From Octopus vulgaris (taxonomy: Eukaryota), in contig OX597819.1 in NCBI GenBank assembly GCA_951406725.2, positions 130,138,001 to 130,202,000 of the forward strand: a stretch of DNA of 64,000 nt, written 5' to 3'. The notes beneath the pieces are model-generated. The model was not told the origin of the DNA. It searched no databases and saw only the letters and a program-made list of their open reading frames with translations. Of this stretch, positions 43,875 through 49,678 are shown piece after piece. Position numbers and translations under genes: made by a program. Positions within the stretch are counted from its first letter, which is position 1. Each line of letters opens with the position of its first letter.

Positions 43875-44040
43875 GGGAGAGTTTACGAAAAAAACAAAAG
43901 ACGAAGACAGGTGGTGTACAAAACAAACAGATGTATTAGTATAACGCTCAGGAATAGAAAAAGTCTTTTACGTTTCGAGCCTACGCTCTTCTACAGAAAG
44001 GGACACAGAAAAAAAACAAGGAGAGAAACAAGGAGAGAAA
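43875..44040 (-). mobile_element. Family E short repeat in (TA)n with a hammerhead-like motif at 44000-43965
   Basis: Minus strand: CUUU-CUGUAGA-A-GAGC[GUAG]GCUC-GAAACGUA-AAAG. Second copy at 49476-49678. Confidence 0.75.
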
Positions 44041-44249
44041 ATATATATATATATATGGAGGTTTGTATATGAGTGTATAAGTGTATATGTTTTTGTGTAT
44101 GAATGCGCGCAATAAATGTCGCTTTGTTTTGGCCCCACAGTTTTAATAAATCATGTTACTTAAAATACTTGGTTTACATACGTTAGGTTTAATATATAAG
44201 TATATATTTGCCGTTGGAGATTTTATTTGAAACGGAAGGATCCAAAACT

Positions 44250-44470
44250 GGCAGTCTGTTGGTTACGACGAGGAGGGTTCCGGTTGATAAAATTAACGTG
44301 CAAGTGGTCCGGCACTCCATAGACAAGCATACTCTTAACGTAGTTCTCAGGGACATTCAGCGTGTATTAGAATGCAACAAGGCCAGTCGTTTGAAATACA
44401 AGTACGACGCCGCGCCGCCGGGGATAGAACTTACGATCTTACGGTCGTGCGCCGAATACCTTAATGATCC
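44250..44470 (-). mobile_element. Degenerate SINE: a different tRNA-like head joined to SINE C tail type 2
   Basis: The tail aligns to 28085-28260 (ggttacgacga.gagggttccggttgat, cttaacgtagttctc). The head ggtattcggcgcacgaccgtaagatcgtaagttc differs from family C. Confidence 0.6.
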
Positions 44471-44931
44471 ATGATTTAAGTAAAACACTTAATATACCAC
44501 GTAGAGTGTATGTTGTTTTAAATGACGAATGGCTTTTACAGAAATATCCCTGTTGCATTCCACTCAATACATCTGACAGTCATCGCTTCCCCAAGAATAC
44601 AACAGTAGGTGTGCGTGTGTGTGTGTGTGTGTGTGCGTATGTGTGTGTGTGCGTGTGTGCGTGAGTGTGTGTTGTGTGTGTGGTGTATGTATTGTGTGTG
44701 TGTGTGTGTGTGGCGTGCGTGTGTGTGGTGTGCTTGTGTGTGTGTGTGTGTGTGCGTGCGTGTGTGTGTGTGTGTGTGTGTGTGTGTGGTGTGTGTTGTG
44801 TGTGTGGTGTGCGTGAATGTGTGTGTGTGTGAGCGTGCGTGTGTATGTGTGTGTGTGAGAGTGTGTGTGTGTGTGTGTGTGTGTGTGTGTGTGTGTGTGT
44901 GTGTGTGTGTGTGTGTGCGTGTGTGTGTGTA

Positions 44932-45141
44932 AGGCGACGAGCTGGCAGAATCGTTAGCACACCGTACAGAATGATAAACAGCATTTTGTTTTTACGTTCT
45001 GAGTCTCAAATTCCGCCGAGATCAACTTCGATTTTTGATCCTTTCGGGGACGATAAATTAAGTACCACTCGAACACTGGAGTCGATACGATCAACTTATC
45101 TCCTGGGAATGGCTGGCCTTGTACCAAAATTTGAAACCAAT
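44932..45141 (+). mobile_element. SINE family B (tail B2) inside (TG)n
   Basis: ggcgacgagctggcagaatcgttagcac...ggccttgtaccaaaatttgaaacc. Confidence 0.85.
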
Positions 45142-45224
45142 ACGTGTGTGTTGTGTGTGTGTGTGTGTGTGTGTGTGTGTGTGTGTGTGTGTGTGTGTGT
45201 GTGTGTGTGTGTGTGTGTGTGTGT

Positions 45225-45510
45225 GTAAGTGTGTGTCTTTGTGTGAGTGTATGCATTAAATGAGTTTATGTGTGTATTGTGTTGTGTGTGTATGTGTGTA
45301 TGTGTGTGTGTATGTGTGTGTGCATGTGTGTGTAACTGTGTGTGTAAGTGTGTGTGTAAGTGTGTGTCTTTGTGTGAGTTTATGCATTAAATGAGTTTAT
45401 GTGTGTATGTGTGTTGTGTGTGTATGTGTGTATGTGTGTGTGTATGTGTGTGTGCATGTGTGTGTAACTGTGTGTGTAAGTGTGTGTCTTTGTGTGAGTT
45501 TATGCATTAA
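45225..45510. repeat. (TG)n-derived minisatellite, three units of ~120-131 bp
   Basis: gtaagtgtgtgtctttgtgtgagt.tatgcattaa at 45225, 45356 and 45476. Confidence 0.9.
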
Positions 45511-45964
45511 CTGGGTTTGTGTGTGCATGTGTGTGTGTGCATGTGTGTGTGTGTGTGTGTGTGTGTGCGTGTGTTTATATTGAAAAAATTTACAGCTTTC
45601 TCGTTTTAACATTCTTTACATCAAGTTTGATTTTATAAAGACATGTGTTCGTATAAACTCTGTATATTTCATACGAGAATCGAAGTCCTGAAATCCATCC
45701 TGAACGTTTCTTCGCTTTCGTAGTCTCATCTTGTCAATGAATGAATTCCTGTTGCGTGTGTTACTGCTTGTTTGTGGCAAGCAAGGAAAATGCGAGTGGC
45801 GTAGATTTAACCACCAAAATTTGGAATTTTGACGGCCTGATTTAGACATGATCAGTCGAGTGTTCTTATTTTGTGTATGCTTAGTGAATGCAGTCAGCTT
45901 GTTTATTTTAACGTTGTGCTGTGTTATAAGTATTGCTTCCATCATTAATCGCCTATTTTGTGAA

Positions 45965-46940
45965 GAATTCCGTATAATAAAATGGAAGATGTTGAGAAAT
46001 TAAAGGAAGACCTAGAAAATAATTTCCCACTAAAATTCAACATCCAGAACAGAACAAATAAAACTGCTAGCTATACAATGAGTCCATTTCTAGACAAACA
46101 TTCAAAGAGAAAATAGCAGATATATCACGCCCGTGCAACGAATACACAAGGAAATGCTGAAAACAGCGAATGTCTACAGAGATAGAATGTGTCAATGGTG
46201 AAATCCCTACTTAGAAATGCTTTTAGATTCTCCTCCACATACGAAATAAAAGCAAATTCTAATCTACAAGCCTATAGACCAAGGCATAGAACAATATAAA
46301 CGCGTATAGAACGCGTTAAGTATATTTTACAATACACGTATTAAAATTGCACAAACCAGACATGAAATATATTACAAGAGTCAACTGGATAATAAATATA
46401 AATTAGATAAGCAAATGACTAAGAACATATAAACAGAATACATGCTGTGAACCAAACCACACCATAAACTAATACTAATAGAATAAAACATTAAAATTAA
46501 AATCTTCTTATGAATAAGAAACCATAAGGGTGGAAACCGTCAGCAAGCTGCTAATCTTGGAATTGATTTAGAAATTTGATTCAAAACGTGAAGTTGTAAA
46601 CTTCGCAAATTTAACTATTATGTTGGTCATAAAAGTACAGCACTCTATTACTGGTTCACTATGTATTTACAAGTAACTATTGCAATGCCGCACAACACAG
46701 AACCAAAAATAGAATATTAGTACACACTAGATTTACCATTCAAAATTCGACACAAAAATAAAGCAACTAATGATAAAAAAAATATACGTATATCGTCATA
46801 CATTTTATTGGTGGAATAAACACAAACGCTGACGTATAAAATTAAAACTAAATTTACAGCAGAAGATAAGATTACGAAAATCTAAAAAACATTGGTGCTG
46901 GATTTGGAAATTTTACTCTTCCAAAGCAAACTGTAAGGTT
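45965..46940 (+). pseudogene. Highly decayed Penelope-like RT C-terminus to GIY-YIG remnant
   Basis: EKLKEDLENNFPLKF..PFLD and NSECLQR*NVSMVKSLLRNAFRFSSTYE resemble PLE RT motif 6-7 and the thumb (S.CP.RYK..I...RA...SS). Confidence 0.55.
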
Positions 46941-49475
46941 CTCATATGGAAAAACACATGTATATGTATATATGTATATATACATATATATATGCATATA
47001 TATATACATATATGTATGTCTATATATACGTATAAATATATGTATATATTTATGTAAATATGTATATATATACACATATACATATATATGTATATGTATA
47101 TATGTATATATACATATATATATGCATGTATATATATATATATATGTGTGTGTGTGTATGTGTGTGTGTGTGTGTGCGCGTGTATGTATGTATTATTCAT
47201 AAATGGCAATTTCTGTATCGATCTGTCTGTTACCATCTTGCTGCCTACACCAGTGAACCAATCTTGAAGAAACTTTGCATACATCTTAAACTAATATCCA
47301 GTTCAATTATAGTCAAATTGGATTTCAATAAAACATCTATAATGCGCGCCCTAGGGTAGTTGGGCTATTACTTCATAAAATGAGAAGGGTGCAACGAGTG
47401 TTAGTGTGAGAGAAATGTGGTGACATAGTGAGTGTGGCTAATATCAGTGAAGGGGAGGACAGCGTTGTGTAAACGAAAAATTATCAAGTGGCAGTGGGAT
47501 GCTAACGTTAATACAGCTGTCATTCACGGATATACACGCGACGCATCATACAGGCTTTCGTAAATACATTTATGCATGCATACACGCGCATGCGCGCTCG
47601 CACACACACACGCACATACACATTACTAACTTTTAAAATGCCGAGCAAAGGAAAGAAAGGTGGGTTTGAGGAATACGTAGCATTAAGGAGAGAGCGGATG
47701 GGTGACTCTTCTGCTGTCGATCGCAAAGAAACACTCACACACACAGACACACACACATACATATATATGTATATACGTATATACAGATGTCTCCTATACA
47801 CTATTTTAAACTCGTGATTACCTGTGTGTACGTTTGTAAATGTGTTTCAGTGCGTATGTGGTTATGTGTGTGTGTGTGTAGGGGAGGGGTCCTTCAACTG
47901 TCTGTCTCTCTACTTTTGTCGGTTCTTCCCTGTTGCTGTCACATGTTGTGAAATTTTAAAATTACGTCAAAACTTTTCAAATTTGGTATATTGAAATAGT
48001 TTTCCACGTTAAATCCGATTTTGTAATTTATATGTTCCAGAAAAATTGCAGAAAAATGTTACTGGGGTTAAAATTGTAATCAATTTTACCCAATCAGAAA
48101 ACAGGATTTGAAAGCTGGCATTTTCTACATGATAGCTGTCTATCACAAAATGAAAGCAAAATCAACACGAGAAGGAATTTTTATTAAACAAACGAAAGCA
48201 AAGCATTGCAACGACTAAATTTGTAAGAATTTTATGAAGTTTTAATAAGTTTTAATGAATAAGGTCATGTGAAACGGTCAAACAGACGTGTAAATAATTT
48301 AAAAAGGAAGAAAAATCATCAACAAAGCTTTTTTTTCTCTGTGTGTGTGTGTGTGAAAAATTGCACAATTCTACCCTAATCAACAGGCCTATCTGTTGAG
48401 GAGCGCATGATCTGACATGGAATAAACAAACATTTATATGTATATATATATATATATGTATTTTTATATAGGTAGAGATATATATGCATATAAGCATATC
48501 TATCTGCCTGGTCTATCACACTCTATATACGCACATGCATTTGTGTATATATACGTGTGTGTGCGTTTCTATATATATATATATATATATATATATATAT
48601 GTATGTATGTATGTATATATATATATATATATATATATATATATATATATTTTACATACACACATGTGTATATATATATGTATACACACACACATATATT
48701 CATATATAAACACACATCTACGCACACACACACACACGTATAAATATAGAAATAGATTAGCAATCTCGAATCGGAGAGAAAATAAGCTATGTTTTTATAT
48801 TTTTATATCTTTTAGAAACAAGTTTATGAAACTTAAGTGGAAATATCAGGATATGAGTCATTCGTATTTTGCAACCAAAAAAGCACTTTCACAGAATATC
48901 CACTGGAAGAGATACATCCAAGATGAGTTTATTACTAAAACAGGGATAAATTCGCTTCAACAACAGCTTGGGGATTCAGACCGTAAAGCGTGTGCACAAA
49001 TATTGCAAGTCATGTTGCTGAACTTCTAGAACTATCGCCAATCTACAGCGTTGGACTGGCACTTTACATTATAGCGCCCTGAAGAATTACAGGTATGTTT
49101 AACTTTCAAGGGATTGAATTCTGAAGGAAAAGAGCTGGAACAAACACAACCCTTTTTTCTGATTCTCCACTGATTCATATACATATTCTCGCACAAAGAT
49201 GTGTGTGTATATATGTATATATATATGTATATGTATATATATATATATATATATATATATATATATATATAATATATATATATATATATATATATATATA
49301 TATATACATACATATATATATACATATATACATATATATATAATATATATATATATATATATATATACATATATATATATATATATATATATATACATAT
49401 ATGTACATATATATATATATATATATATATATATATATATATATATATATATATATATATATATATATATATATA

Positions 49476-49678
49476 GGGAAAGTTTACGAAGAAAACAAAA
49501 GAGGAAGACAGGTGGTGTACAAAACAAACAGATGTATTGGAATAACGCTCAGGAATAGAAAAAATTCTTTAACGTTTCGAGCCTACGCTCTTCTACAGAA
49601 AGGGACACAGAAAAAACAAGGAGAGAAACAAGGAGAGAAAAAAAATGTGTGTAGTGGCTAACGATCTATCATGGCGAC
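49476..49678 (-). mobile_element. Family E short repeat in (TA)n with a hammerhead-like motif at 49602-49567
   Basis: Highly similar to 43875-44040. The triplet is GUU instead of GUA. Confidence 0.75.

What the first reader, a model, noticed from the sequence alone, without database searches (positions are those of the whole stretch)
43875..49678. Family E: ~170-200 bp (TA)n-embedded elements carrying a variant minimal hammerhead ribozyme
Seen: two near-identical minus-strand copies (43875-44040, 49476-49678), both flanked by (TA)n. Each folds as stem I CUUU/AAAG, core CUGUAGA, an extra A, stem II GAGC/GCUC, then GAAA and a palindromic ACGU stem III, with triplet GUA or GUU. Established: Penelope-like elements and metazoan retrozymes carry minimal type-I hammerheads whose palindromic stem III works as a dimer. 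Inference: a non-autonomous, TA-targeted PLE-derived or retrozyme family. Both copies have U at core position 6 (normally A), so this is either a natural core variant or a family that spread after losing catalysis.
Basis: partly seen in the sequence, partly recalled or inferred. Interest (0 to 1): 0.72.

Follow-up and report, generated by a model that had tools for sequence, protein, structure and literature searches.

The report
Penelope-element hammerhead with fixed U6 core
The two short inserts are leftover ends of a very abundant, protein-coding Penelope-like jumping gene whose small hammerhead RNA motif has U in place of a normally fixed core A in about 95% of some 23,000 genomic matches; the rest of the motif is likely kept by selection, and whether it still cuts RNA is untested.

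Summary
In detail: two 94%-identical minus-strand copies in TA repeats carry a minimal type-I hammerhead motif with U at core position 6. They are not a retrozyme. They are 5'-truncated terminal repeats (pLTRs) of an autonomous Penelope-like element of Neptune/Nematis type. U6 is lineage-wide: 21,705 of 22,908 genomic matches, and 80 of 81 copies picked without using the core. It also stands in both pLTRs of young elements with intact 963-aa RT + GIY-YIG frames. Between U6 subfamilies, 0 of 30 constrained motif positions change, against 14-21 of 90-99 flank positions; only N7 and H17, the free hammerhead positions, vary. So the motif is likely under selection. Cleavage is not shown: no copy begins at the cut site, I found no U6-snRNA chimera, and U6 is predicted to favour an inactive fold. 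Many short copies begin at one site about 68 nt upstream of the core, likely a transcription start, so they were likely copied from uncut RNA. I found no A6U natural variant in the papers searched. This scan noted it before, in this genome and in others. Verdict: new variant of a known kind; interest 0.5.

The parts
43875..44040 (-). Copy 1: 166-bp 5'-truncated pLTR (3' end) of a Penelope-like element, CUGUAGA ('TA') subfamily
   Evidence: 95-96% identical to the 5' pLTR and 94% to the 3' pLTR of full-length L141
43965..44000 (-). Minimal hammerhead motif of copy 1: stem I CUUU/AAAG, C3 43996, U6 43993, extra A 43989, stem II 43988-43977, GAAACGU; predicted cut between 43969 and 43968
44041..44056 (.). 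(TA)8 at the 5' junction of copy 1
43855..43874 (.). TA tract at the 3' junction of copy 1; the element's own end runs into TATA
   Evidence: same end in most subfamily copies
49476..49680 (-). Copy 2: about 203-bp pLTR fragment that begins at the family's 5'-end hotspot
49567..49602 (-). Minimal hammerhead motif of copy 2: C3 49598, U6 49595, H17 = U 49571
49658..49680 (-). 5'-end hotspot (inferred transcription start) followed by CGCC-ATG, three codons and a stop (ATG 49672-49670, TAG 49660-49658)
   Evidence: 39 of 90 copies start at -70..-57 from C3; motif seen across subfamilies; function inferred
49215..49475 (.). Long TA tract at the 3' junction of copy 2
49681..49703 (.). Imperfect TA tract at the 5' junction of copy 2

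Best explanation
The two inserts are 5'-truncated terminal-repeat fragments of a protein-coding Penelope-like retroelement whose minimal hammerhead has carried U at core position 6 through a series of subfamilies, and the motif is likely still selected as a hammerhead that would cut only slowly, as a dimer. Shown: parentage, U6 fixation, conservation of every motif position except N7 and H17, a shared 3' end at an internal TATATATA and a sharp 5'-end hotspot about 68 nt upstream of C3. Inferred: RNA starts at an internal promoter in the pLTR. The element's endonuclease nicks (TA)n. RT primes at the RNA's first TA motif about 125 nt past C3 and copies back to the RNA start through an uncut hammerhead, which gives the ~170-200-bp solo copies. 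Priming at the second pLTR gives long copies. Rare cleavage between the two hammerheads of a full ~4.5-kb transcript would process it. U6 is predicted to pair with A15.1 and so damp cleavage of the monomer.
For: Counts: U6 21,705, A6 473 of 22,908 matches. Samples picked outside the core: TA subfamily U6 in 80 of 81; the older subfamily U6 in 22 of 26, A in 3, C in 1; young TT copies U6 in all 27 of 30 that reach the core. Parent: RT/EN upstream in 14 of 30 longer TA copies; L141 has pLTR-ORF-pLTR; 4 of 20 fetched regions hold intact 963-aa frames, 98.9-99.7% identical, three with the U6 motif at both ends; pLTR pairs are 97.2-99.8% identical. Selection: 0 of 30 constrained positions differ against 19/99, 21/95 and 14/90 in flanks (p 0.004, 0.002, 0.014); N7 takes all four bases and H17 is A or U. 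Fold: stems I and II covary across 14 rows including relatives (7 of 8 pairs change on both sides). In run X19 (organism D) deep cover is confined to the motif, N7 is mostly C and no A6 row is listed. The motif fits the published min-HHR consensus except at position 6 (PMC4209133 supplement).
Against: No 5' ends at the cut: 0 of 90 TA and 0 of 30 TT copies; the A6-bearing CCGACGA family shows none in 30 either, so this does not single out U6. No U6-snRNA chimera at this clade's cut (0), against 1 for the CCGACGA family. Single changes in CUGA gave low activity in a mutational scan (PMC9901934, section 7), and A6C cut the rate in Mg2+ sharply (PMC7151607). U6 is predicted to pair with A15.1 (P of the neighbouring G5-C15.2 pair 0.60-0.95 in TA/TT, but 0.04-0.12 in TG/TC). 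Loop 2 (GUAG) is as invariant as the core, which catalysis alone does not require. Stem II does not covary inside this genome's families. The transcription start is inferred from DNA ends only. The three subfamily comparisons are not independent.
Confidence: 0.55

Rival explanations
1. Same element, but the U6 motif no longer cuts. The hammerhead-shaped hairpin is kept for another job, such as binding the element's RT/EN protein or acting as part of the internal promoter.
For: No ends at the cut; no U6-snRNA chimera; predicted U6-A15.1 pairing gives a rod-like fold in TA/TT; loop 2 is invariant; position-6 changes are harmful in vitro (PMC9901934 section 7, PMC7151607); Naiad PLEs spread without canonical hammerheads (PMC8557442, passages).
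Against: The only positions that change between masters are N7 and H17, and H17 is never G in the consensus set, which is the rule for catalysis. The off-fold is not predicted for TG/TC. An A6 family also lacks ends at the cut.
Confidence: 0.3
2. The short copies form a self-propagating non-autonomous family (SINE-like or retrozyme-like), transcribed from their own promoter and moved in trans by the PLE protein.
For: 84 of 90 TA copies are shorter than 300 nt upstream of the core, with a sharp 5' edge. One locus has three short copies head to tail (L192). Three nearby copies share a double change that breaks stem II (L218-L220).
Against: The same repeat ends coding elements. Short dimers have different junctions at each locus shown. 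No tandem arrays of a fixed unit were seen. Most short copies start downstream of the edge and so lack the inferred start.
Confidence: 0.1
3. U6 killed the ribozyme once, and the motif looks conserved only because too little time has passed.
For: TA vs TG alone is not significant (0/30 vs 8/110, p 0.14); only a few master lineages are compared.
Against: Three samples picked without the core differ at 15-22% of flank sites and at none of the 30 motif sites. The motif alone stays alignable at depth in organism D.
Confidence: 0.05

Closest known systems
Minimal hammerheads (min-HHR) in the pLTRs of metazoan Penelope-like elements (Cervera and De la Pena 2014, PMC4209133; main text parts 1-3 and supplement file 2 part 2 read)
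   Same: U-rich 5' flank, short stem I, extra base between 9 and 10.1, G10.1-C11.1, GAAA-palindrome-UH, mostly solo truncated copies, a place in pLTRs.
   Different: U at position 6. Every row of the part of their alignment that I read has A6, and the core variant they report is U3-A8. Their descriptor was built on the catalytic boxes, so a U6 core would likely be missed (my inference).
C-terminal EN+ PLEs of the Neptune/Nematis type (Craig et al. 2021, PMC8557442; passages read)
   Same: One frame with RT, a CX2-5CxxC linker and a GIY-YIG endonuclease with internal cysteines; pLTRs; tandem and inverted copies; (TA)n targets.
   Different: Neptune versus Nematis was not tested by phylogeny. 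The hammerhead core is non-canonical.
Natural A6C hammerhead of phage Bcep176 (PMC3088659 section 8; PMC7151607 parts 1-2)
   Same: A natural change at core position 6 in an otherwise normal hammerhead.
   Different: C, not U; a single phage motif with shown low activity and Mn2+ preference, whereas this one has over 21,000 copies and is untested.
Metazoan non-LTR retrozymes (PMC7229834, abstract; bioRxiv 10.64898/2026.07.22.740005, parts 1-2 of 5)
   Same: Similar size (170-400 nt), type-I hammerhead, link to PLE pLTRs.
   Different: Retrozymes are tandem non-coding units. These are solo ends of a coding element with variable 5' ends.
Drosophila virilis Penelope internal promoter (PMC2377424, section 14)
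   Same: Transcription starts inside the pLTR at a TATA-less internal promoter, as inferred here from the 5'-end hotspot.
   Different: There it was mapped by experiment; here there is no RNA evidence.

Membership tests
C-terminal EN+ PLE (Neptune/Nematis type) | Single frame with RT followed by GIY-YIG endonuclease | tested here: met
   RVT_1 31.8 bits (over cut-off); GIY-YIG 17.1 bits, E 0.0069 (under its cut-off of 22.6) at the C-terminus; motifs ADKG, YIDD, YIG; window subfamily linked
C-terminal EN+ PLE (Neptune/Nematis type) | Cysteines between GIY and YIG (CCHH motif) | tested here: met
   IIY-C..C..C...YIG.T at residue 874 in 4 of 4 intact frames
C-terminal EN+ PLE (Neptune/Nematis type) | CX2-5CxxC linker between RT and EN | tested here: met
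   C-X4-C-X2-C at residue 836
C-terminal EN+ PLE (Neptune/Nematis type) | pLTRs, partial tandems and inverted copies | tested here: met
   Motif pairs 4.45-4.58 kb apart; tandem at L098/L099; inverted copies at L016, L177, L178
C-terminal EN+ PLE (Neptune/Nematis type) | Insertion into (TA)n | tested here: met
   TA-like 3' tail in 57 of 90 TA copies by a strict rule and TA-rich 5' flank in 44 of 84; TA tail in all 30 TT copies as printed
Neptune clade specifically | RT phylogeny with named reference elements | not tested
   No named references were at hand; homologues carry no clade names
min-HHR of PLEs | Core CUGANGA (A at position 6) | tested here: not met
   U6 in 21,705 of 22,908
min-HHR of PLEs | Extra H between 9 and 10.1; G10.1-C11.1; GAAA-palindrome-UH | tested here: met
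   consensus in PMC4209133 supplement
min-HHR of PLEs | Stems I and II supported by covariation | tested here: met
   94.6% of cells paired, 7 of 8 pairs with changes on both sides; this rests on relatives from other hosts, and inside this genome only one stem I pair covaries
min-HHR of PLEs | Self-cleavage as a dimer | not testable with these tools
   Genomic proxies were inconclusive
Non-LTR retrozyme | Tandem arrays of a fixed 170-400-nt unit | tested here: not met
   Copies are mostly solo; short dimers have different junctions
Non-LTR retrozyme | Non-coding unit without a coding body of its own | tested here: not met
   The same repeat ends RT/EN frames
Non-LTR retrozyme | Abundant linear and circular RNAs | not testable with these tools
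   Only contigs of runs not on record as RNA were offered

The most novel reading that the evidence does not exclude
A natural A6U hammerhead that is active in the germ line: U6 locks the lone motif in an inactive fold by pairing with A15.1, and dimer formation between the two pLTRs (perhaps with the element's protein or Mn2+) releases it. The dominant jumping-gene lineage of this genome would then use a core change as a built-in switch between short uncut templates and processed full-length RNA.
Probability: 0.2. Interest if true: 0.8.

Novelty: new variant of a known kind. Interest (0 to 1): 0.5.

Why it matters
What PLE hammerheads do is an open question: they cut weakly in vitro and their role in vivo is unclear (PMC4209133, PMC8557442). 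Here a core base thought essential is changed in over 21,000 copies and in young intact elements, while the rest of the motif stays fixed. Either the hammerhead core tolerates A6U, or the fold matters without cutting; one cleavage assay with a U6A control decides. Standard descriptors fix CUGA and would likely miss this family. The 5'-end hotspot also offers a simple account of why such genomes are full of ~200-bp hammerhead stubs.

Tried and rejected
DNA search with the 166-bp copy found nothing, because common words are skipped. Rfam gave only microsatellite noise. My first reading of an A6-to-U6 ladder was partly an artefact: the 'AT' group had been picked by an A6 pattern, and resampling it by an outside anchor showed mostly U6 (22 of 26). 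The 'AC' group was picked the same way and was not resampled, so it is not used. A6 is firm for the CCGACGA family (26 of 26); the GUUU/GUCU-loop family was seen only through the A6 pattern. Trees of pLTRs and of EN DNA were poorly resolved at the base, so the order of old subfamilies is not shown. Proxies for cleavage: (TA)n junctions near the cut showed no clear spike in the roughly 34 loci listed. Copies that break off at the cut numbered 14, against 5 and 0 at two matched control positions and 13 at +1; most are small deletions with microhomology, so this is not decisive. Searches were badly matched controls and were dropped. None of 48 full-length U6 snRNA copies joins this element. No RNA holder was listed, and contigs cannot show ends. 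The U6 pattern had 0 matches in metagenome contigs. Literature: 'hammerhead + A6U + core + variant' gave one unrelated paper, 'CUGUNGA' none, 'hammerhead ribozyme + cephalopod' nothing on this motif. Lunse et al. 2017 (PMC5785218) and Hammann et al. 2012 are not held, and file 1 of the PMC4209133 supplement was not searchable; any of these may list a U6 variant.
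Full report
Observation. The window is microsatellite-rich animal DNA from a 2.8-Gb assembly. Each has stem I CUUU/AAAG, core CUGUAGA, one extra A, stem II GAGC/GCUC with loop GUAG, then GAAACGU and H17 (A at 43969, U at 49571). Copy 1 lies between clean TA tracts; copy 2 has an imperfect TA tract at its 5' end. No PLE coding sequence lies in the window and only pLTR parts match, so the two are separate insertions.

Copy number and position 6. The pattern CTGNNGAAGAGC-N4-GCTCGAAAC has 22,908 genomic matches, the reversed control 0. 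U6 accounts for 21,705, A6 for 473, C or G for 730 by subtraction. Because this pattern fixes most of the core, I resampled with anchors outside the motif. Window ('TA') subfamily: 5,060 anchor matches, of which I took the first 90 listed; 82 reach the core and 80 of the 81 with a base have U6. Young 'TT' subfamily: 1,931 matches, 30 taken, U6 in all 27 that reach the core. An older subfamily: 270 matches, 30 taken, 26 reach the core, U6 22, A 3, C 1. A related family with core CCGACGA has A6 in 26 of 26.

Parent element. Longer copies carry PLE protein upstream. A protein search gave 17,014 candidates in the genome. Of 20 regions fetched, 11 (10 loci) hold two motifs 4.45-4.58 kb apart with pLTRs 97.2-99.8% identical. 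Four hold intact 963-aa frames, 98.9-99.7% identical, with RT motifs, a C-X4-C-X2-C linker and a GIY-YIG domain with internal cysteines. All these carry CUGUUGA, that is U6. For the window's own subfamily, 14 of 30 loci chosen for a longer 5' part have RT/EN upstream, and L141 is a decayed full-length element with this pLTR at both ends. No intact TA-subfamily frame was found among 20 further junction loci. By the features in Craig et al. 2021 (PMC8557442, passages) this is a C-terminal EN+ PLE of Neptune/Nematis type; the clade was not tested by phylogeny.

Selection on the motif. Subfamily copies differ from their consensus by 0.7% (young TT), 2.7%, 3.3% (TA), 5.7%, 6.8% and 8.0% (old). Among the three samples picked without the core, 0 of 30 constrained motif positions differ, against 19/99, 21/95 and 14/90 in flanks (Fisher p 0.004, 0.002, 0.014; not independent of each other). 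Across U6 subfamilies only N7 (A, C, G, U) and H17 (A, U) change; these are the free positions of the hammerhead consensus (PMC7151607 introduction). Loop 2 is also invariant. In 80 metagenome loci of related PLEs, 17 of 18 motif hits have A6 (0 in five shuffles). With seven of these, stems I and II covary (7 of 8 pairs); inside this genome only one stem I pair does. Contigs from four organism labels cover position 6 with no other letter listed. In run X19 (organism D) deep cover is confined to the motif, N7 is mostly C, and no A6 row appears. That suggests U6 predates a species split, though low-depth cover of other parts in that run is unexplained.

How the short copies likely arise. The 3' end is fixed at an internal TATATATA, which in 5' pLTRs runs on into the element body. 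The 5' ends are not random: 39 of 90 TA copies start at -70 to -57 from C3, with a sharp edge at AGTCGCC, and only 4 start between -299 and -71. In TT, 8 of 30 start at the homologous site, and the CCGACGA family has its own hotspot. D. virilis Penelope starts transcription inside its pLTR (PMC2377424, section 14), so I infer a start site, priming at the first TA motif and copying through an uncut hammerhead. Copy 2 begins at this edge; copy 1 is cut shorter. No RNA data test this.

Does it cut? Unknown. Against: 0 of 90 and 0 of 30 copies start at the cut, though an A6 family shows the same. No U6-snRNA chimera was found at this clade's cut against one for the CCGACGA family, a test suggested by earlier notes and too small to weigh. 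Breaks at the cut (14) exceed two controls (5 and 0) but not the +1 position (13) and mostly show microhomology. Folding predicts that U6 pairs with A15.1 in TA and TT but not in TG and TC. Mutating CUGA lowers activity (PMC9901934, section 7); natural A6C is weak in Mg2+ and rescued by Mn2+ (PMC3088659 section 8; PMC7151607 parts 1-2). For: the pattern of change follows the catalytic rules, and even A6 min-HHRs cut poorly and only as dimers (PMC4209133).

Correction. My first subfamily ladder treated two groups as A6; one proved mostly U6 when sampled fairly and the other was not rechecked. The direction A6 to U6 rests on the outgroup family, the relatives and the canonical core, not on a resolved tree.

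Novelty. The element and its minimal hammerhead are known kinds (PMC4209133). I found no natural A6U variant in print (supplement rows all A6), but could not see Lunse et al. 2017. An octopus repeat annotation does not mention hammerheads (PMC13282606, term search); the host group is my guess and was not tested. This scan has noted the U6 core before, once in this genome and in other genomes. Verdict: new variant of a known kind, interest 0.5.

Noticed in passing
window 40960-41145 (+) and 61795-62020 (-): Two copies of a related, abundant PLE end (6,366 anchor matches) with core CCGACGA: U4C, A6 and stem I GUUU/AAAC. A second family-wide core variant in this genome.
   Followed up: partly
window 18119 (+) and 62281 (-): Older, more diverged members of the same hammerhead-bearing PLE ends (cores CTGACGA and CCGCCGA).
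   Followed up: no
L441 (G000:C24:3771174): U6 snRNA joined to the CCGACGA-family end exactly at its predicted cut, with 2 nt of possible microhomology.
   Followed up: partly
window 49658-49676 (-); L092, L028, L141, L016, L011, L033: Just after the 5'-end hotspot, CGCC-ATG, three codons and a stop (TAG or TGA) are kept across subfamilies. It may be a tiny upstream ORF or a YY1-like promoter motif (motif recalled, not tested).
   Followed up: partly
L340:1503-1545 (+): A tandem PLE from a metagenome contig has a hammerhead-like motif with core UCGUAAA (U3-A8, C4, U6) between two frames: possibly an independent U6. Single copy.
   Followed up: no
L177, L178, L179 (about 165 nt past the pLTR end): Several TA-subfamily insertions end at the same second site in the 5' UTR and run into (TA)n or (CT)n: a second priming site.
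   Followed up: no
L174, L175, L187, L189-L192: Internally deleted pLTR-5'UTR-pLTR dimers with different microhomology junctions, often about 230-300 nt into the 5' UTR.
   Followed up: partly
L393-L440: Most of the 48 best U6 snRNA copies are followed directly by other repeat sequence (SINE- or LINE-like 3' ends by eye).
   Followed up: no
window 36812-37182: A 188-bp unit in two tandem copies, apparently a common short repeat.
   Followed up: no
window 17184-17516 (+) and 16838-17173 (-): Short frames that look like a mariner-type transposase piece and a LINE RT-region piece (by eye).
   Followed up: no
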